A stretch of 24,000 nt of DNA from the NCBI GenBank assembly GCA_025929075.1, contig JAICMS010000006.1, positions 26,500-50,499 on the forward strand, in the 5' to 3' direction. Below, in pieces: positions 2,911-24,000 of this stretch; position 1 is the first letter of the stretch; the number at the start of each line of letters is the position of its first letter. The DNA comes from Propionibacteriales bacterium (lineage in GTDB: Bacteria > Actinomycetota > Actinomycetes > Propionibacteriales > Nocardioidaceae). The notes under the pieces are model-generated. The model ran no database searches. It had not been told where the DNA came from and was given only the letters and a program-made list of their open reading frames with translations. The position numbers and the translations under genes are program-made.

Positions 2911-3790
2911 TAGGCCGGGTGTAGAGCCAGGGCGTGAAGCGCGGAATGGTCAGCAGTAGAGCCAGCAGGACGTCGGGCCGGCAGGCGGGCATCTCGACGA
3001 AGTCGCTGGGTGCGTCCTGAGGGGAGATGCCGATCGAGATGTGGGCGTACAACGCGCGGAGGAAGTTGGAGGTGTTGCGGGCGGCGAAGGTGGGCCCGGC
3101 CGGCTTCTGCAGGGGCGGCTGTCCGACCTCGGCCGCAGCCGCAAGCGTCTCGACCCAGTCCTCGAGCCACCCGGAGTCGAGCAGGTTGCGCTGCAGCACG
3201 GTGAGCACGGCGTAGGCCAGTCGGTCGTCCTCGCCGTCGACGAGGACGCGAGTGGCATTGGTCGTGAGGCGCTCGGCGACGACGTCCAGCAGGACGCCGA
3301 GCTGGTCCGCATCAAGATGACGCGAGCGCCCGAGCGCCGTCACCAAGTCGGCGCCGTGTGCCATCGTGTGCGCCCAGCCCTTGCCGTCCACCCAGCCGCG
3401 CAGGTCGCGTTCCCGGGTAAACCACTCGATCGCCCGCTCCGCCCACTTCAGGGCGACATCGATCGGCACCAGGTGGGCGGCGTTGTCGCGTTCGACGCAG
3501 CTGGCGAGCACCAGCGCGGAGAAGCTGCGCCGGAAGACCGCGTCACCCTCCAAGCTGCCGAGCTCCACCCTCAGCCCGTTGCATATCGCGTCGCCGAAAC
3601 TGACCAGCAGGGCGTCGTAGACACCATCGGCGATCCAAGCCGCGAGCACCGAGTACGCGACCTCGTCGCGCTCGACCGGGTCGGCGGAGCCGAGCATGGT
3701 GACCAGCTCGGCCGTGAGCTCGGGAAGTGGCCGGTCGTCCGGCACGGCCATCTCGGACTCAAGCACCCGTTGCCAGAACCCGCCGGCCAT
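2897..3790 (-). CDS. DUF2785-like helical-repeat protein (function unknown)
   Basis: 297-aa ORF with high GC3. Motifs LGSADPVERDEVAYSVLAAWI, FRRSFSALVLA and ERDLRGWV..KGWAHTMAHGADL match my memory of the DUF2785 family. Confidence 0.7.
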   Translation of the reverse strand: MAGGFWQRVLESEMAVPDDRPLPELTAELVTMLGSADPVERDEVAYSVLAAWIADGVYDALLVSFGDAICNGLRVELGSLEGDAVFRRSFSALVLASCVERDNAAHLVPIDVALKWAERAIEWFTRERDLRGWVDGKGWAHTMAHGADLVTALGRSRHLDADQLGVLLDVVAERLTTNATRVLVDGEDDRLAYAVLTVLQRNLLDSGWLEDWVETLAAAAEVGQPPLQKPAGPTFAARNTSNFLRALYAHISIGISPQDAPSDFVEMPACRPDVLLALLLTIPRFTPWLYTRPSTRH

Positions 3791-16975: not shown

Positions 16976-17056
16976 TCGCCAGTAGCAGGTTGGGTGAGAT
17001 TTTCGGCGCTCTGGCGGACAAAAAGTCACCCGACCTCCGGCCGGACGCGTCCATGG

Positions 17057-17521
17057 CTACTGCGTGAACAGCCGAGACGGGTCGGCGAACGCCTTGAACT
17101 CCAGCGCGTTTCCGGAGGGGTCGAGGAGGAACATCGTCCACTGCTCTCCGGGCTCTCCCGCAAACCGCACATAGGGATCGATGATGAAGTCGACGTCGGC
17201 GGTCCGCAGCCGCTGTGCGAGCGCATGGAAGTCGCCCACGGACAGGACCAGACCGAAGTGGGGGACCGGTACGTCGTGGCCGTCGACCTCGTTTGTGCCT
17301 GCGACCGCAGCGTGGTACCCGTCGACCTGGTGGGTGACCATCTGATGGCCGGCCAGGTTCCAGTCGACCCACCTGACGTCGGAGCGGCCTTGGCCCAGAC
17401 CGAGGACGTCACCGTAGAAGTGGCGCGCAGCATCGATGTCATGCACCGGAATCGCCAAGTGAAACGGGGGAAGCGACTGCAGAGCCGGTGACACAACGTG
17501 CACTCTAACGGCAGCGCGCAT
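17057..17521 (-). CDS. VOC (glyoxalase/bleomycin resistance/extradiol dioxygenase) family protein
   Basis: PFHLAIPVHDIDAARHFYGDVLGL...VPHFGLVL...MFLLDPSGNALEFK is typical of the VOC fold. The start is uncertain, with candidates ATG 17521, GTG 17524 and GTG 17494. Confidence 0.8.
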   Translation of the reverse strand: MRAAVRVHVVSPALQSLPPFHLAIPVHDIDAARHFYGDVLGLGQGRSDVRWVDWNLAGHQMVTHQVDGYHAAVAGTNEVDGHDVPVPHFGLVLSVGDFHALAQRLRTADVDFIIDPYVRFAGEPGEQWTMFLLDPSGNALEFKAFADPSRLFTQ

Positions 17522-17766: not shown

Positions 17767-18801
17767 TCAGTGTCCAGCTCCTGCCAGACGCATCGACGCG
17801 ACGAAGCCGAGGCCTGGGGTGAGGCGTTTCACGCGGCCGTGCGTGTCGTCCAAGACCCAGAGAGAGCCGAACCCCGAGCGCACCACAGACGCGTCACCGC
17901 CGATCGGCAGGGTCTGGTCGATGTCTCCGGTGACCGGGTCGCGCTGCTCAAGAGTTCCGTCGAAGCCGATGCCGGTCTGGCGGTGGACTCTCGCGTCATA
18001 GGCGACCCAAAGAGAGCCGTCCAGCGTGGTCATCGCGTTGAGGTAGCCCGGATCGTAGTCGTCCTGTTGGAGTGTCGCCCCCGTAGAGGGCTCCAACTGG
18101 TAGAGCGTGTTAGAGCAGTGGTCCACCGACCAGAGGGTCTGTCCTGCTGCTTGTAAATCTCCGCAGAAGTAGTCATCGGTCGCGTTCTGACTCACGACCG
18201 AGTTTGTGGTCGGGTCGATCGTGGTGATTGGCAGGTCACCGTTGGACGCGCCGACGTAGATGTACTGGTCGTCGGAAGTGATGTCTTGGGGCCCATTCCG
18301 GAAGGTGTGGGCCTGTCCCGCGGGGAGAGTGGCGATTACCTTGTTCGTGGCCGGGTCAATGCGGCTCACCGACGAGCCGTGGTGGTTTGACACCCAGACC
18401 GATCCGAAGGCGACGTGGACTGCATACGGCTGCAAGCCGACCTTGACGCGCGCTACAACATGGCCCGAGGCATCGATCCGCTCGACGGTGTTGTCGTAGT
18501 ACATAGCGACCCAGAGCGAGTGGAACCCTACGCCGAAGCCGCCGGCTGCTGAGTCGAGGGTGAAGGCGTCGGTCACCCCGTCGGTCGCGGGATCGATGCG
18601 GTAGATGACTGAGTACGACTGCTCGTCGTCCTCGAGCACCCACATCGACCCGAGTCCTTCCCGCATGTCGTAGTAGCCGGGCGGAATCGTGACGTTGTCA
18701 GCGCGGGCCGGGCTGGCACCCGCCGGGGCCGGTATCGTCAGGAAGACGAGGGCGGTGGTCGCGGCAAGGCATGCTACGGCGCGAAGCGAATATCTGAGCA
18801 T
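17767..18801 (-). CDS. Secreted 7-repeat beta-propeller protein (YVTN/NHL-like repeats), paralogue A
   Basis: 344 aa with a signal peptide (MLRYSLRAVACLAATTALVFLTIPAPAGA). It has seven units of ~45 aa with the pattern G-S-x-W-V-x(6-9)-V-x-R-I-D-P-x-T-N-x-V (e.g. GSVWVSNHHGSSVSRIDPATNKV). GGGAG SD lies 5 nt upstream. It starts 16 nt after the stop of paralogue B. Confidence 0.8.
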   Translation of the reverse strand: MLRYSLRAVACLAATTALVFLTIPAPAGASPARADNVTIPPGYYDMREGLGSMWVLEDDEQSYSVIYRIDPATDGVTDAFTLDSAAGGFGVGFHSLWVAMYYDNTVERIDASGHVVARVKVGLQPYAVHVAFGSVWVSNHHGSSVSRIDPATNKVIATLPAGQAHTFRNGPQDITSDDQYIYVGASNGDLPITTIDPTTNSVVSQNATDDYFCGDLQAAGQTLWSVDHCSNTLYQLEPSTGATLQQDDYDPGYLNAMTTLDGSLWVAYDARVHRQTGIGFDGTLEQRDPVTGDIDQTLPIGGDASVVRSGFGSLWVLDDTHGRVKRLTPGLGFVASMRLAGAGH

Positions 18802-18817: not shown

Positions 18818-19837
18818 TCAGAACGGCGTGACGCGGAGCACGCGGTTGGTGTATTGGAAGTTGTTGGTCCACAGGCTGTCGCCGAGCCCGATCACGTCGA
18901 AGGCGTCCGACCCGACCGGTTGGGTGGCGACGACGTCGCCGGTCATCAAGTCGCGCTTCACGAGGCTGCCGCCGCGGCATGCATACGTGCGCGGGTGGAA
19001 GGCGTCCTGCGCGGTGTACAGGACTCCGTCGAAGACCGCAGCACCGAGCAGGCAGTCGTCGACGGTGAAGCTGGCGGCGATGGAGTGTGAGGTCAGGTCG
19101 TAGCGGCTCACGGTGTTGCTGCAGTCGCTGTCGTCGAGCCAGAAGCCGTCCGGGGCTTCCAGGATCCGGCCGCACGCGGCCGCCGGTGCGACGTTCTCAG
19201 TTTGGACCACCGTGTTGGTCGCTGGGTCGATGCGGACCACCTGATCGGAGTCCGGCACGGTTGCCCAGACCGAGTCGCCGATGATCGCCAGTCGATTCGG
19301 TCCGCCGAAGAAGTGCTGAGGATCCCCGACCGAGATCGTGGCCATCACTTTGTTGGTGGCGGGGTCGATTCGGGAGACGGTGGCCGCGGTGAGATTCGCG
19401 ACGAAGACGGAGCCGAAGCCGGCGACGACGTCCGACGGCGTGCGTCCGGCGGGGATCTTCGCGACGAGTTGAGCCGTTGCGGCGTCCACTCGGTCGACGC
19501 GGTTGCGATAGTAGTCGGAAACCCAAATGCTGCCGCTCCCCGCGGCTATCGATCCGGGCAGGATGTCATCACCGCTGACCTGTCCGCCACCCAGCCGTAC
19601 CACGGCCGTCACCTGGTTTGTGGTGGGGTCGATGCGTGACAAGTAGCTGCGCGAACCCTGGCTCAGGGCCCAGATGCTCCCGTATCCCGCACCCTCGTAG
19701 GCGGGGCCCGGCTTCACGGGTATCACAGCCTCCACGTCCGTGGGGCGCGAGAACTGTTGGCCGGCAGCGGTGGCCGGCAACGCAAGGGCGAGGAGCGCGG
19801 CAATGGCGAGCGGTACGGCCCAACGGCCTCGGCTCAT
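18818..19837 (-). CDS. Secreted 7-repeat beta-propeller protein, paralogue B
   Basis: In frame in track ORF 18818..20230. I chose ATG 19837 because it gives a signal peptide (MSRGRWAVPLAIAALLALALPATAAG). The upstream 131 codons run antisense across the intergenic region and the regulator start. It has the same repeat pattern as paralogue A (GSVFVANLTAATVSRIDPATNKV). Confidence 0.8.
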   Translation of the reverse strand: MSRGRWAVPLAIAALLALALPATAAGQQFSRPTDVEAVIPVKPGPAYEGAGYGSIWALSQGSRSYLSRIDPTTNQVTAVVRLGGGQVSGDDILPGSIAAGSGSIWVSDYYRNRVDRVDAATAQLVAKIPAGRTPSDVVAGFGSVFVANLTAATVSRIDPATNKVMATISVGDPQHFFGGPNRLAIIGDSVWATVPDSDQVVRIDPATNTVVQTENVAPAAACGRILEAPDGFWLDDSDCSNTVSRYDLTSHSIAASFTVDDCLLGAAVFDGVLYTAQDAFHPRTYACRGGSLVKRDLMTGDVVATQPVGSDAFDVIGLGDSLWTNNFQYTNRVLRVTPF

Positions 19838-19916
19838 TCTCCACTGAGGGTCATCTTTCACGGATGTCGCCTTCCTGACGGCAGCTGTCGGTGTTAGCCC
19901 ACAGCCTCGATGCGGC

Positions 19917-19937
19917 CGGTGGAAGTTCGGTGGAAGT
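19917..19937. promoter_or_regulatory. Two 10-bp direct repeats CGGTGGAAGT with 11-bp phasing in the divergent intergenic region (candidate SARP-binding site)
   Basis: Exact copies read directly at 19917-19926 and 19928-19937. On the minus strand the repeats end 8 nt before a -10-like GAGGCT (19908-19903), about 65 nt upstream of the propeller-B ATG. Confidence 0.4.
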
Positions 19938-20014
19938 GCCCGCGCATCCCGCTTGACCAGCCATGATGCGGCGGAACGGCTGCCGTGGGAGGGGAGGTCG
20001 TCTAACGTTCGAGC

Positions 20015-23000
20015 ATGTGGTTCGGCGTGCTGGGGGCGCTGGCCGCACGCCAAGACGACGGGGGGCACGTGTCCATCCCCGGCCCTGCGCGCCGGCTGCT
20101 CTTGGCGGCGCTGATCTCTCGGGTCGGAGAGACCGTAACGCCGTCGGTTCTGGTCGAAGACCTGTGGGGTGACACGCCTCCGGCGACCGCCGGCAAGACC
20201 TTGCACAGTCATGTGCGCCGTCTCCGTCATGACCTGTCGGGTTCCAGCGACGACCGCGATTGGATCGTCACCGAACCCGGGGGCTACCGGCTAGACCTGG
20301 CTGCCGAGTCGATCGATGCCGGCTGCTTCGAGGCGGCCCTCACCGCCGGACTCGCGGCTCTGGGCAGCGGCGACGCCAAGGAGGCGCTGCCCCGCCTGGA
20401 TGCGGCTCTGGGCTGGTGGCGCGGCGTGCCGTACGCCGAGTTTCCTGACGCTGAGTTCGCCATCAGGGAGCGGCTTCACCTGACCGAACGGCACGCACTC
20501 GCGCACGAAGCGCGAATAGACGCCGCCCTCCTCCTGGGTCAGGGCGCGTCGCTGGTCGCCGACCTTGAGGCCCAGTTACTTCTCGACCCATATCGGGAGC
20601 GGTCCTGGGAGCAACTCATGATCGCGTTGTGGCGGGCCGGTCGCCAAAGCGACGCGCTGGCCGCGTTCCAGCGTGGGCGCAGGACGCTGGTAGACGACCT
20701 CGGCATCGAACCTGGCCCCGGTCTCCGCGCGCTCGAGGAGCGCATTCTTTCCCACGATGAGTCACTGCTAATACCGGCGACGTACCGGACCGAGAGGATC
20801 GAGGCTCCGGTCAGCCGCGCTGGCCCGGTCTGCCCGTATCAAGGGCTTGCAGCCTACGACGAGCAGGACGCAGGCCTCTTCGTCGCTCGCGAACACGCGG
20901 TCGCACGTCTCGTCGGCCTCGTCGATGGCGGTGGCGTTGTCGTCGTGACCGGGCCTAGCGGCGTCGGAAAGTCGTCACTCGTGCGGGCCGGCCTGATACC
21001 CGCCCTGCGCAGCGGCGCCTTGCCCGGGTCCAGCAACTGGCGGTGCGCGGTGGCGAATGCCGGAGACCTCGCGAACCTTTCGCCGCCGAAAGTTGATGTC
21101 CTGGTGGTCGACCAGGCCGAGGAGATCTTCACGGTGCCCCCGGAACGCGAAGGCAGACGCGTCCGCCAAGGCGTGCTCGCCGGCATGTCCGCGTCAACGG
21201 TCATCATGGTGGTGCGTGCAGACAGGTACGTCGACCTCGCGGCGATGCCGGAGGTTTCGCACCGGCTCCTGTCCGCGCCGCTGGTGGTGGGGTCCCTGAC
21301 GGAGACGGAGCTGGCCCGCGTGGTCACCGAGCCGGCTCGTCGTCTAGGCCTGGACTACGAGCCCGAGCTGGTCGACGAGATTCTGGCCGACGTCCGCGGG
21401 CAACCTGAGGCCCTTCCGATGCTGTCTCAAGCGCTGCTGCGGACCTGGGCCAATCGGCACGGCCGATGGCTCACCGTCGAGGGATACCGGGCGGGCGGTG
21501 GGGTGAGCGGTGCCCTCGAAGCGGCGGCCGAAGAGGTCTACCTGGATCTCGATGAACAGACCCGCGACGACGTTCGTCGACTCCTGCTCAGAATGGCCAC
21601 GTTCGACGCGGGCATGTGGTCGCGCCGGCCCGTGCTCACCGAACAGCTCGGCTCCCTCGGCATCCACCGGCTCGACGAGACGGTCACCCTGCTCGCCGAC
21701 CGCCGCCTCGTGACGGTCACGGAGAAACGCGTCGAGCTGATCCACGAGGCGCTCCTCACCCGTTGGCCGCGGCTGCGCTCGTGGCTCGATGCAAGGGCCG
21801 CTATGGCACCGGCAGCCGAGCGCCTCGCTGACGCGTCGCGGGCCTGGGCGGACACCGATCGGCCCGAAAGCGATCTTTATCGGGGACTGCGCCTGCAGGA
21901 GGCGCTTGCTTGGCAGGCCTCCGGTGGTGCCGACCTGAGTCCGGTCGAAACCGAGTTTCTAGCGGCTTCCCGAGCCGCGTCCGATGAGGAGATTCGTCGC
22001 GCCGAAGCGCAGGTTGTTGCGGATGCGCGCAGTAGGCGTCGCCTGCGCAATGCCGTCGCAGGGCTGACCGCGTTCGCCGTTCTCGCCCTCACCGGATTGG
22101 GGGTCGCCCTCCACGAGCGCGCGGTGGCTCAACAGGATGCGCTGGTCTCGGAGGCGAGCGCCCTCGCTTCCCTGTCCCACACGGTGCCCGACGTGCGAAC
22201 CTCGCTGCTGCTGGCGGTCGCCGGATACCGGCTAAACGACGACGCCGATACCCGCTCTGCACTGCTGTCCGCGGTGGAAAGCGCGAGCTCCATCCGCTGG
22301 AGAATCCCCACCCCGGTCGGCCCGGACGACCTGGTGGCGAACACCAACGGGCACCTGTGGCTGACCCACCAGTCGGCGGGTATCAACGAGTATGACGCAG
22401 GGAGCAGACGACTGGTCGCCGAGTTGCCGAGCGTGGCCCCGACTCTGGACGCTGTCTCTCCGGATGGTCGCACCCTCGTGGTGTCCGGACCGGCTTCCTT
22501 CCCCGCGACCACCACGACCGGCCGTGTCGACATACTGAACGCCCACACCGGAGCAGTCATCACCGAGCTGCACATCCACGGCACGCAGCGTCGAGTCGGC
22601 ACGTGGTCGTCAGCGGCGTTCACCGGCGACGGCCGCTGGCTCGCCGTGATCGTCGGACGGCCCAGCCACGATCTGCTCGGGGGCGCCCTGCAGCCGAGCC
22701 GCACTGTGGCCGTGTTCGACACCAGCGACTACTCCCGCCCCCCACACGTGCTGCGTGTCGATGCGCCCATCACGCAACTCGCCGCGGGCACGAGTGCTCT
22801 CGCGATCGGGACGGCGACGGGGCACCTCGTGGAGTTCACCCTGCGCGACGACGCGGCGGGTTTCCGCGCGATCTCCTCACGCGTCGCGGAGCACAGTTCG
22901 GGACGGGGGCCTTTCTCATTGTCGCCCGACGGCCGGTACATCGCGACGACTGCTCCAGGTCGCCCGCGGCTCGTCCGTGTGATATCGGCTTCGCCGCCGA

Positions 23001-24000
23001 ACCGAGTCGCCGACTCCTTCGCCTTGTCTGCGAAAGTCACTGACGTCGCCTTCTCCCCTGGCGGCGATAGGGTCGCCGCCGTCGCGCCGGGCGTGAAGCT
23101 CGCCATCGACGCCGTTCCCACCGGCACCGTTGAGCGGCTTGCGATACCGAGCCGACCGGGCGATCACGAGACTCTGGCCTGGTCGGGCACTCCGACCCAC
23201 CCTGCGCTCTACTTAACCGACCCGGCAAATGAGATCGTGTCCATCAACCTGGACGACACTGCGGTTGTCGTGCACCGTTCCAGAGTCGCGGCCCCACAGG
23301 GGGAGGTCTCCTTCATGGCCGGGTCGCACGTGATCACCGTGACCACCCTCGGCGAACCGGGTCTCGCCCCACCGCGGCTGATCGAGTCGGACCCGCTGAC
23401 CCGCACATCGACGTCGTACCCGATTGCCATCCCGAAGCGTGACGTCATAGCCGCGCTGACCGTGGATCGCTCAGTCGACCGTGTGCTTCTGCAGTACGTC
23501 GGGCCAAACTCGGTCATTCACTCTGCGGTTCTTAGCCTGCCGAGCGACAGAGTCGTGTCACGGTTTCTCGCGACTCCGCGCCCGAGCGCCCACTATTCAT
23601 ACACCGGCGTGATCTCCGAGGACGGCACGCAGGCCGTGTGCGCCGTCGGAGACCACCGGATAGCAGTCATTTCTCTACCGTCCGGTCGAGTGGTGCGCTC
23701 ATTCGACATCCATTTCAGCGGACCGGCGGGCCTCCACACGCTCCCCATGCCCATGTTCTACGACCCGAACGGGGACGTGGTCGTCGCCGGGTACAACCCC
23801 ACGCCGCCCGCCTCGAGCCATGGCGGTCCGTCGGCGGATCGCACGGCTCCGCCGCCGGTGCAGAGCCTGGGACTCGTCGACCCACGCACCGGGAGACTGG
23901 TCGGCCAAACTCATCTGGGCGTCCAGGGCGTCGTGAGCGCCGCCGCGTGGTCCCCCGACGGGCAGCGTGTTGTGGTCGGTACATGGGCCGGAAACCTCAG
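20015..24000 (+). CDS. Large SARP-family regulator, 3'-partial: OmpR-type wHTH + BTAD, P-loop STAND NTPase, hydrophobic helix, WD40-like beta-propeller
   Basis: Hand translation shows one uninterrupted frame from ATG 20015 (in-frame TAA at 20003-20005) to the window end, 1328 codons. It is not in the ORF track. The N-terminus is MWFGVLGALAARQDDG...LWGDTPPATAGKTLHSHVRRLRHDL (SARP wHTH), followed by a BTAD helical region. Next come CPYQGLAAYDEQDAGLFVARE, Walker A GPSGVGKS (20951-20974) and Walker B VLVVDQAEE (21098-21124). A hydrophobic stretch AVAGLTAFAVLALTGLGVAL (22052-22114) follows, then repeats containing SPDGRTLVV, FTGDGRWLAV, LSPDGRYIAT, FSPGGDRVAAV and WSPDGQRVVVG. Confidence 0.9.
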   Translation, partial: MWFGVLGALAARQDDGGHVSIPGPARRLLLAALISRVGETVTPSVLVEDLWGDTPPATAGKTLHSHVRRLRHDLSGSSDDRDWIVTEPGGYRLDLAAESIDAGCFEAALTAGLAALGSGDAKEALPRLDAALGWWRGVPYAEFPDAEFAIRERLHLTERHALAHEARIDAALLLGQGASLVADLEAQLLLDPYRERSWEQLMIALWRAGRQSDALAAFQRGRRTLVDDLGIEPGPGLRALEERILSHDESLLIPATYRTERIEAPVSRAGPVCPYQGLAAYDEQDAGLFVAREHAVARLVGLVDGGGVVVVTGPSGVGKSSLVRAGLIPALRSGALPGSSNWRCAVANAGDLANLSPPKVDVLVVDQAEEIFTVPPEREGRRVRQGVLAGMSASTVIMVVRADRYVDLAAMPEVSHRLLSAPLVVGSLTETELARVVTEPARRLGLDYEPELVDEILADVRGQPEALPMLSQALLRTWANRHGRWLTVEGYRAGGGVSGALEAAAEEVYLDLDEQTRDDVRRLLLRMATFDAGMWSRRPVLTEQLGSLGIHRLDETVTLLADRRLVTVTEKRVELIHEALLTRWPRLRSWLDARAAMAPAAERLADASRAWADTDRPESDLYRGLRLQEALAWQASGGADLSPVETEFLAASRAASDEEIRRAEAQVVADARSRRRLRNAVAGLTAFAVLALTGLGVALHERAVAQQDALVSEASALASLSHTVPDVRTSLLLAVAGYRLNDDADTRSALLSAVESASSIRWRIPTPVGPDDLVANTNGHLWLTHQSAGINEYDAGSRRLVAELPSVAPTLDAVSPDGRTLVVSGPASFPATTTTGRVDILNAHTGAVITELHIHGTQRRVGTWSSAAFTGDGRWLAVIVGRPSHDLLGGALQPSRTVAVFDTSDYSRPPHVLRVDAPITQLAAGTSALAIGTATGHLVEFTLRDDAAGFRAISSRVAEHSSGRGPFSLSPDGRYIATTAPGRPRLVRVISASPPNRVADSFALSAKVTDVAFSPGGDRVAAVAPGVKLAIDAVPTGTVERLAIPSRPGDHETLAWSGTPTHPALYLTDPANEIVSINLDDTAVVVHRSRVAAPQGEVSFMAGSHVITVTTLGEPGLAPPRLIESDPLTRTSTSYPIAIPKRDVIAALTVDRSVDRVLLQYVGPNSVIHSAVLSLPSDRVVSRFLATPRPSAHYSYTGVISEDGTQAVCAVGDHRIAVISLPSGRVVRSFDIHFSGPAGLHTLPMPMFYDPNGDVVVAGYNPTPPASSHGGPSADRTAPPPVQSLGLVDPRTGRLVGQTHLGVQGVVSAAAWSPDGQRVVVGTWAGNL

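What the first reader, a model, noticed from the sequence alone, without database searches (positions are those of the whole stretch)
19838..20014. Exact 10-bp direct repeats with one-helical-turn phasing between the regulator and the propeller operon
CGGTGGAAGT occurs twice (19917-19926 and 19928-19937), giving an 11-bp period. SARP activators are known to bind short direct repeats spaced 11 bp apart, with the promoter-proximal repeat about 8 bp upstream of the -10 element. On the minus strand the repeats end exactly 8 nt before GAGGCT, which has the conserved A2 and T6 of TAnnnT, so they face the propeller operon. Separately, TAACGT (20003-20008) lies 6 nt upstream of the regulator ATG and no SD lies within 15 nt, suggesting a leaderless regulator mRNA.
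Basis: partly seen in the sequence, partly recalled or inferred. Interest (0 to 1): 0.6.

Follow-up and report, generated by a model that had tools for sequence, protein, structure and literature searches.

The report
Conserved SARP operator before secreted-propeller genes
The two 10-bp repeats are real and are most likely the docking site from which the neighbouring SARP-type activator switches on two secreted propeller genes; the same layout recurs at 11 further sites in related bacteria, so it is a solid but ordinary new example of a known kind of switch.

Summary
Observation confirmed. CGGTGGAAGT occurs at 19917-19926 and 19928-19937, an 11-bp period, and this tandem is unique in the 2.69-Mb genome.

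An exact repeat of this kind is only weak evidence by itself: the genome holds 12 such runs, against about 7 expected by chance. Comparison with other loci decides the matter.

Eleven further sites sit next to genes of the same SARP-nSTAND1-WD40 regulator family. They come from 10 other loci in several families of the class.
- Each has 2-4 units of 11 bp. On the target strand the consensus is nnCTTCnACCG.
- Each then has exactly 8 nt, followed by a NANNNT hexamer. That makes 12/12 sites, against a background of about 2%.
- The boxes always face an adjacent gene for an exported or membrane protein. That gene may lie divergent from, upstream of or downstream of the regulator.

A matrix trained only on the other sites ranks the window's site first in its own genome (30.4 bits; next 17.6; control 17.9).

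This geometry is the published SARP/AfsR one.

The leaderless reading of the regulator is also supported. TANNNT lies 6 nt before the start codon in 12 of 14 close relatives, the window included.

The parts
19928..19938 (-). Promoter-distal 11-bp SARP box unit, CACTTCCACCG on the - strand
   Evidence: Read directly and reported as repeat D9. It matches the family unit nnCTTCnACCG derived from 11 other sites.
19917..19927 (-). Promoter-proximal 11-bp SARP box unit, AACTTCCACCG on the - strand
   Evidence: Together the two units score 30.4 bits with a matrix trained without this site, the top hit among 5.35 million positions of the own genome.
19909..19916 (-). 8-nt G+C-rich spacer (GCCGCATC) between the proximal unit and the -10-like hexamer
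   Evidence: The spacer is exactly 8 nt at all 12 sites compared. The 8-bp rule for SARP sites is given in PMC10936776 and PMC11301090.
19903..19908 (-). -10-like hexamer GAGGCT (A2, T6) of the predicted activator-dependent propA promoter
   Evidence: A at position 2 and T at position 6 in 12/12 sites, against a NANNNT background of 1.9-2.2%. The AfsR-dependent afsS promoter likewise has a suboptimal -10, CACTGT (PMC10936776).
19894..19898 (-). Predicted transcription start of the propA-propB mRNA (inferred, not mapped)
   Evidence: Inferred from the usual 6-8 nt between a -10 hexamer and +1. A population variant A/G lies at 19896.
18818..19837 (-). propA, a secreted YVTN/DUF6923-type beta-propeller and first target gene. 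GTG 19861 is an alternative and probably better start.
   Evidence: Pfam hits to DUF6923 and Glu_cyclase_2. A signal-peptide-like N-terminus is seen. GTG 19861 has GGAAGG 8 nt upstream, whereas ATG 19837 has GGAGA only 1 nt away.
17767..18801 (-). propB, a paralogous secreted propeller 16 nt downstream of propA, presumably co-transcribed
   Evidence: Pfam DUF6923. 35% identical to propA, E=1e-44. No terminator-like site lies between the two genes.
20003..20008 (+). -10 hexamer TAACGT of the regulator's own promoter
   Evidence: It lies 6 nt before ATG 20015. TANNNT-N6-start is found in 12 of 14 close relatives, the window included, and at no other spacing more than once.
20015..24000 (+). SARP-nSTAND1-WD40 regulator, 1370 aa. 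It runs on 127 nt past the window end. The mRNA is predicted to be leaderless, with its start at or near 20015.
   Evidence: Pfam Trans_reg_C, BTAD and nSTAND1, with weak WD40 hits. Full length from the contig. PDB hits to EmbR and AfsR. A single hydrophobic segment at residues 681-699 follows an Arg cluster, as in all 38 family members.

Best explanation
The two 11-bp-phased repeats are the operator (SARP box) of an activator-dependent promoter that drives the two secreted propeller genes on the minus strand.

Proposed mechanism:
- Two SARP domains of the divergently encoded SARP-nSTAND1-WD40 regulator bind side by side. Each takes one unit, on one face of the helix, in place of a -35 element.
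- They recruit or adapt RNA polymerase to the weak -10 hexamer GAGGCT, 8 nt downstream, as solved for AfsR at afsS.
- Transcription then starts near 19896 and runs through propA and propB.
- The regulator itself is made from a separate leaderless-type promoter (TAACGT, 6 nt, ATG).

Shown here: the anatomy, its uniqueness in the genome, and its conservation at 11 other sites beside orthologous regulators.

Inferred: binding by this protein, activation rather than repression, the TSS positions, and control by the NTPase/WD40 parts.
For: 1. **The repeat** is exact, 11-bp phased and unique in the genome.
2. **The neighbour is a SARP**. The AfsR base-contacting residues T88 and R92 align with S65 and R69. 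R69 is invariant in the 38-member family alignment and S65 is kept in at least 90% of members.
3. **Eleven further sites** lie beside family members. They are in L138, L052, L142, L139, L140, L051/L054, L143, L097 (two sites), L088 and G121/L155. Each has 2-4 units nnCTTCnACCG, 8 nt, then NANNNT. That is 12/12 sites against a 2% background.
4. **The boxes follow the target promoter, not the regulator's start.** The target is divergent in four loci, upstream and co-directional in L139, L140, L051 and L143, and downstream of the regulator in G121.
5. **A matrix built without the window** ranks the window's site first in its genome: 30.4 bits, next 17.6, reversed control 17.9.
6. **A strict pattern search of 401 genomes of the class** hit only G000, G151, G173 and G095. 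The hits in G000, G151 and G173 lie at the box sites beside the regulator gene found. The control pattern gave 1 hit.
7. **G000, G151 and G173 each have a single strong site**.
8. **The box variant tracks the recognition helix.** Four loci with KTLQSHVVRLRDDL all carry CTTCAACCG.
9. **No sigma-70 consensus promoter** is found in the spacer, as expected for an activator-dependent promoter.
10. **The geometry equals the published SARP rule**.
Against:
- The hexamer never has T at position 1 (consensus S-A-S-G-S-T). It is therefore not a canonical -10 and could serve another sigma factor.
- If TTC is read as in the AfsR structure, the register relative to the -10 is one bp longer than at afsS.
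- Two loci (L140, L051) fit the 8-nt rule only when four units are counted.
- The propeller genes themselves have no close orthologues, so footprinting of this particular promoter was impossible. The only near-identical genomes are 99.9% the same.
- Orthologue loci are related, so the site counts are not fully independent.
Confidence: 0.82

Rival explanations
1. The boxes are bound by another OmpR/PhoB-type regulator, for example a PhoP-like protein, whose boxes are also 11-nt direct repeats with a TTCA-containing core. The SARP neighbour would then be incidental.
For: The unit core TTCnACC resembles the Streptomyces PHO-box core as I recall it (recalled, not tested here). AfsR and PhoP are reported to share the afsS site (PMC10972967).
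Against: - A global regulon would give many sites per genome. G000, G151 and G173 each have one strong site, and it lies beside the SARP-nSTAND1-WD40 gene.
- The sites co-occur with this regulator family at 12 sites across 11 loci, the window included, with unrelated target genes.
- The box variants track the SARP recognition helix.
Confidence: 0.06
2. The boxes mainly serve autoregulation of the regulator gene. Bound protein 70-90 bp upstream of the leaderless promoter would repress or stimulate it, and the effect on the propeller genes would be secondary.
For: In the four divergent loci the boxes lie at similar distances from the regulator start: -98, -80, -104 and -102. In L140, L051 and L143 the boxed promoter lies upstream of a small gene that directly precedes the regulator, so read-through could feed back on it.
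Against: - In L139 the boxes are about 1.4 kb upstream of the regulator start, before another gene. In G121 they lie after the regulator's stop codon.
- The conserved 8-nt spacer and NANNNT hexamer always lie on the side of the other gene.
- The regulator has its own conserved -10.
Confidence: 0.07
3. The repeat is a chance or slippage duplication of 11 bp without function.
For: Exact runs of 10 or more at period 11 occur 12 times in the genome, near the chance expectation of about 7. The motif is not enriched in the window.
Against: - The same unit, phase, spacer and hexamer occur at 11 other sites in other organisms.
- A matrix trained on those sites alone singles out this site among 5.35 million positions.
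Confidence: 0.03

Closest known systems
AfsR / afs box at the afsS promoter of Streptomyces coelicolor (cryo-EM structures 8HVR, 8JKE, 8K60; PMC10936776, PMC11301090)
   Same: [quoted passage not shown]
- The conserved part is at the 5' end of each unit, with a TTC core.
- The -10 is suboptimal and begins with C or G (afsS has CACTGT).
- The regulator is a large SARP with a STAND-type NTPase behind the SARP domain.
- The SARP domain is homologous (E=7e-33), and the residues that contact bases in AfsR are kept or conservatively replaced.
   Different: - The NTPase is nSTAND1, not NB-ARC/NOD, and the C-terminus is a WD40-like propeller, not TPR.
- A conserved hydrophobic segment separates the NTPase from the propeller.
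- The box sequence differs (CTTCnACCG).
- There is one local target per genome instead of a global regulon.
- The targets are exported proteins, not a small regulator of antibiotic synthesis.
- The register to the -10 may differ by 1 bp.
Cluster-situated small SARPs (ActII-ORF4, DnrI, RedD, OtcR) with heptameric or 9-nt direct repeats
   Same: - Repeats have an 11-bp period, with 2-3 or more copies and the 3' copy 8 bp from the -10.
- The regulator gene lies beside its target promoter, often divergently (PMC4393881, PMC10972967).
   Different: - Those regulators control antibiotic biosynthetic clusters in Streptomyces. Here no biosynthetic genes are nearby and the regulator is 1370 aa.
- Similarity of TC(n)ACCG to the classical heptamer TCGAGCG (5 of 7 positions) rests on my memory of that consensus and was not tested.
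EmbR of Mycobacterium tuberculosis (PDB 2FEZ)
   Same: It is the best solved relative of the DNA-binding and BTAD part (E=7e-45 over residues 3-247).
   Different: EmbR carries an FHA domain and is controlled by phosphorylation. It has no NTPase, no propeller, and no operator with this sequence has been described for it, to my knowledge.
Leaderless mRNAs of actinobacteria (-10 hexamer TANNNT ending about 7 nt before the start codon)
   Same: TAACGT-N6-ATG with no SD; the same arrangement is found in 12 of 14 close relatives, the window included.
   Different: Nothing unusual. It is an ordinary instance and has not been mapped experimentally.

Membership tests
SARP operator (SARP box promoter) | Direct repeats with a period of 11 bp (or 22 bp), all on one face of the helix | tested here: met
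   Two exact 10-mers 11 bp apart. Related loci have 2-4 units at 11 bp.
SARP operator (SARP box promoter) | 3' repeat about 8 bp upstream of a -10 element, with the repeats replacing or overlapping the -35 | tested here: met
   An 8-nt spacer then GAGGCT. 12/12 sites have NANNNT at exactly 8 nt, against a 2% background. The rule is cited from PMC10936776, PMC11301090 and PMC4393881. The hexamer is -10-like only: A2 and T6 are present but T1 is not.
SARP operator (SARP box promoter) | A SARP protein (OmpR-type winged helix plus BTAD) is encoded in the genome, typically adjacent | tested here: met
   Trans_reg_C at 5e-9 and BTAD at 3e-37 in the divergent gene. EmbR and AfsR hits in the PDB.
SARP operator (SARP box promoter) | Operator conserved together with the regulator in other genomes | tested here: met
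   Eleven further sites beside family members. Leave-out matrix test. Strict pattern search of 401 genomes.
SARP operator (SARP box promoter) | Sequence-specific binding of the SARP domain and activation of transcription | not testable with these tools
   Needs EMSA or footprinting and reporter or in vitro transcription assays.
SARP operator (SARP box promoter) | Transcription start 6-8 nt downstream of the hexamer | not testable with these tools
Leaderless mRNA | -10 hexamer TANNNT ending 6-7 nt before the start codon, with no SD in between | tested here: met
   TAACGT at 20003-20008 and ATG at 20015. 12 of 14 close relatives, the window included, have TANNNT at N6 and one at N7, and no other spacing occurs more than once. 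The 5' end is not mapped.
PHO box / PhoP regulon | Many boxed promoters per genome (pst, pho genes and others) | tested here: not met
   There is one site above the control level in G000. G151 and G173 each have a single perfect site.
Known RNA family in the spacer | Match to an Rfam covariance model | tested here: not met
   The only hit is a sub-threshold CRISPR-DR20 match inside the regulator ORF (E=0.77).

The most novel reading that the evidence does not exclude
The boxes define the output of an uncharacterised class of membrane-anchored, one-component STAND sensors. The proposed layout is a cytoplasmic SARP domain, a cytoplasmic nSTAND1 NTPase, one transmembrane helix and an extracytoplasmic WD40-like propeller. 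Each sensor would switch on a single neighbouring promoter for an exported protein. The exported targets seen here are secreted propellers, about 400-aa secreted proteins, small single-pass membrane proteins and a trypsin-like protease. The outside propeller may sense the exported product or its ligand. That would be a ToxR-like logic combined with an NLR-type nucleotide switch.
Probability: 0.35. Interest if true: 0.7.

Novelty: new member of a known kind. Interest (0 to 1): 0.5.

Why it matters
- **A testable handle on an unstudied family.** The work gives a concrete operator (nnCTTCnACCG x2-4, 8 nt, SASGST) and a one-promoter regulon for a widespread but unstudied family of SARP-STAND-WD40 regulators. 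That family is absent from the current SARP classification, which lists small, medium, large/TPR and SARP-LAL types (PMC10972967).
- **SARP geometry outside antibiotic clusters.** The SARP promoter geometry solved for AfsR also operates outside antibiotic gene clusters and outside Streptomyces. Here it controls exported proteins.
- **Direct experiments are now possible.** The function of the NTPase and propeller parts can be tested with a reporter on a 60-bp promoter.
- **Annotation.** The results support a leaderless start for the regulator and a probable corrected start for propA.

Tried and rejected
- **Footprinting of the propA promoter itself.**
  - propA has no close orthologue among 40 relatives or in genome contigs, where the best matches are 37% identical and come from Acidobacteria.
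  - The best protein hit, P0002 (54%), lies on a 3.7-kb contig without a SARP gene.
  - Three other MAGs and one Logan contig are 99.9-100% identical to the window and so carry no information.
- **Metagenome scan.** The scan with the family alignment returned mostly distant relatives of 44% identity or less. Only L088 and L097 proved useful.
- **Loci without DNA.** Two look-ups (P0132, P0137) returned gene maps with divergent neighbours but no DNA.
- **Loci with no box found.** None was found in the sequence held for L141 (only 558 bp upstream), L055, L056 or L057. Patterns with 2 mismatches in G103 and G264 were at control level.
- **Simple enrichment of the 10-mer in the window.** None was seen.
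- **Consensus scans.** The sigma-70 promoter, terminator and Rfam scans were all empty.
- **A plus-strand promoter for the regulator fed by the boxes.** Rejected, because no -10-like hexamer lies 8 nt downstream on that strand, and the regulator's conserved -10 lies 65 nt away.

Full report
**1. The observation**

The + strand reads CGGTGGAAGT T CGGTGGAAGT at 19917-19937. The 177-bp spacer (19838-20014) separates two genes.
- On the minus strand is a gene for a secreted YVTN/DUF6923 propeller (propA, 19837-18818). A paralogue, propB, follows 16 nt behind it.
- On the plus strand is a gene that starts at 20015 and encodes a 1370-aa protein with Trans_reg_C, BTAD, nSTAND1 and WD40-like parts.

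On the minus strand the units are followed by 8 nt (GCCGCATC) and then GAGGCT. TAACGT lies 6 nt before the regulator's ATG.

**2. Is it more than chance?**

Within the genome (2.69 Mb, 69% G+C, 224 contigs, 94% complete) the tandem is unique even with 3 mismatches allowed. Exact runs of at least 10 at period 11 occur 12 times, against about 7 expected from composition. The 10-mer with up to 2 mismatches is not enriched in the window. The repeat alone would therefore be a weak lead: about 0.1 expected per window and about 8e-4 for this spacer.

**3. Comparative evidence**

The propeller genes have no useful orthologues, and the only other copies of the locus are 99.9% identical.

The regulator belongs to a well-populated family. 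About 40 proteins are 50-62% identical in the SARP domain and share the same architecture. More distant members occur in 28 of 401 genomes sampled from the class.

I fetched their loci and read the flanks.

*Loci where the neighbour is divergent.* Each of the three has the same kind of repeat in the same place as the window.
- L138: CGGTAGAACTT CGGTAGAAGCG.
- L052: four units.
- L142: three units.

*Reading on the neighbour's strand.* Every site is nnCTTCnACCG units, then 8 nt, then a hexamer with A at position 2 and T at position 6.

*Boxes that sit away from the regulator's start.*
- In L139 the neighbour lies upstream on the same strand. It is a 392-aa secreted protein, 52% identical to the divergent neighbour in L138. 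The boxes sit upstream of that gene, about 1.4 kb from the regulator start.
- In G121 the boxes sit just after the regulator's stop codon. They precede a secreted Vgb_lyase-family propeller that is distantly related to propB.

*New sites from a unit matrix.* A matrix built from the first five loci found new sites above the reversed-sequence control. They were in L140, L051/L054, L143, L097 (two, back to back) and L088.

*Totals.* Twelve sites were compared. All have NANNNT exactly 8 nt after the proximal unit: GAGGCT, CACGCT, CACCGT, GATGCT, CAGGGT, GAGTGT, GAGGGT, GAGCGT, GATGGT, GACGGT, CACGTT and GACGCT. The background frequency of NANNNT is 1.9-2.2%. Two of the sites (L140, L051) need a four-unit reading, as in L052.

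**4. Independent tests**

- A 36-column matrix built from the 11 sites outside the window ranks the window's site first among 5.35 million positions of its own genome. It scores 30.4 bits; the next site scores 17.6 and the best reversed-genome control 17.9.
- A strict pattern (two units, spacer, NANNNT, at most 1 mismatch) was run on 401 genomes of the class. It hit G000, G151, G173 and G095. The hits in G000, G151 and G173 coincide with the box sites already found beside the regulator gene. The control pattern hit once.
- G000, G151 and G173 each have a single strong site. That fits a dedicated local regulator and does not fit a global one such as PhoP.
- Box variants go with recognition-helix variants. 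Four loci with the helix KTLQSHVVRLRDDL all carry CTTCAACCG. The window has KTLHSHVRRLRHDL and CTTCCACCG. Related loci share both features by descent, so this is only supportive.

**5. Mechanism**

The published rules for SARP sites are as follows.
- Direct repeats lie 11 or 22 bp apart, with the 3' repeat 8 bp from the -10.
- At afsS, two 11-bp repeats span -40 to -19. [quoted passage not shown]
- The afsS -10 is suboptimal (CACTGT).

These rules come from PMC10936776, PMC11301090 and PMC4393881.

The regulator's SARP domain aligns with AfsR at E=7e-33 and with EmbR at E=7e-45. The AfsR residues that contact bases, T88 and R92, correspond to S65 and R69. In the family alignment R69 is invariant and S65 is kept in at least 90% of members. 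In AfsR those residues read the TTC of each repeat, and TTC is also the most conserved part of the unit here.

I therefore take the site to be a SARP box promoter for propA-propB. The predicted start is near 19896 and the leader is about 35-60 nt long. No sigma-70 consensus promoter, terminator or Rfam family lies in the spacer.

Two caveats apply.
- If TTC is read exactly as in AfsR, the distance to the hexamer is one bp longer than at afsS.
- The hexamer never begins with T.

**6. The leaderless claim**

TANNNT followed by 6 nt and the aligned start codon is present in 12 of 14 close relatives, the window included. One more has 7 nt, and no other spacing occurs more than once. A more distant clade has TTGAC, 17-18 nt, NACAGT, 6 nt, then the start codon.

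**7. Context (inferred)**

All 38 aligned family members carry one strongly hydrophobic 19-residue segment after an Arg cluster, between the NTPase and the propeller. The boxed targets are all exported or membrane proteins:
- secreted propellers;
- about 400-aa secreted proteins;
- small single-pass membrane proteins;
- a trypsin-like protein.

This suggests a membrane-anchored sensor whose outside propeller relates to the exported products. The idea was not tested.

**8. Verdict**

The element is a new member of a known kind, the SARP operator, belonging to an uncharacterised SARP-STAND-WD40 family.

Noticed in passing
window 19859-19876 (- strand): propA may start at GTG 19861, which has GGAAGG 8 nt upstream. 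That adds 8 codons (MKDDPQWR) before the ATG at 19837, whose GGAGA lies only 1 nt away.
   Followed up: partly
window 19896: The only difference in the spacer among four near-identical assemblies is A/G at 19896 (T/C on the minus strand, in GGGC[T/C]AAC). It lies at the predicted propA transcription start.
   Followed up: no
window 22055-22111 (regulator residues 681-699); alignment A1: All 38 family members have one hydrophobic 19-mer (mean Kyte-Doolittle 2.0-2.9) right after an Arg-rich cluster, between the NTPase and the WD40-like part. This suggests a membrane anchor with the propeller outside the cell.
   Followed up: partly
L097:2665-2724: Two box pairs stand back to back and face opposite genes, each with an 8-nt spacer and NANNNT. 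One gene is a trypsin-like 271-aa protein and the other a 97-aa ORF. This looks like a bidirectional SARP-dependent promoter pair.
   Followed up: partly
L140:3085-3501, L051:6642-7034, L143:2618-3004: The boxed targets in three loci are homologous small single-pass membrane proteins (128-139 aa; E=9e-12 and 6e-6). They carry repeated RH(Y/F)(Y/F) motifs, have no Pfam match and lie directly upstream of the regulator.
   Followed up: partly
L155:1499-1534 and 1587-2546 (G121): Here the boxes lie immediately after the regulator's stop codon and precede a secreted Vgb_lyase-family propeller. This is a second, independent pairing of this regulator family with a secreted propeller.
   Followed up: yes
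proteins P0166, P0170, P0173, P0175, P0178, P0180 and others: Many proteins fuse a SARP domain (43-46% identical to this one) directly to DUF6923/YVTN propeller repeats and an SBP_bac_5 domain. The same propeller family that is the target here is the sensor-like part there.
   Followed up: no
L027, L030, L032, L033, L035, L042, L049 (upstream of the regulator starts): A more distant clade of the family has a textbook leaderless promoter: TTGAC, 17-18 nt, NACAGT, 6 nt, then ATG or GTG.
   Followed up: partly
L139 and L140 gene calls: The deposited gene calls start the regulator 96 and 135 nt too far upstream. The aligned starts at 3342 and 3636 carry the TANNNT-N6 signature.
   Followed up: yes
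window about 17050-17520 (- strand) and L140:8356-8820: A 154-aa glyoxalase-family gene lies next to the module both in the window (after propB) and in L140 (after the regulator). This may be a remnant of shared synteny.
   Followed up: no
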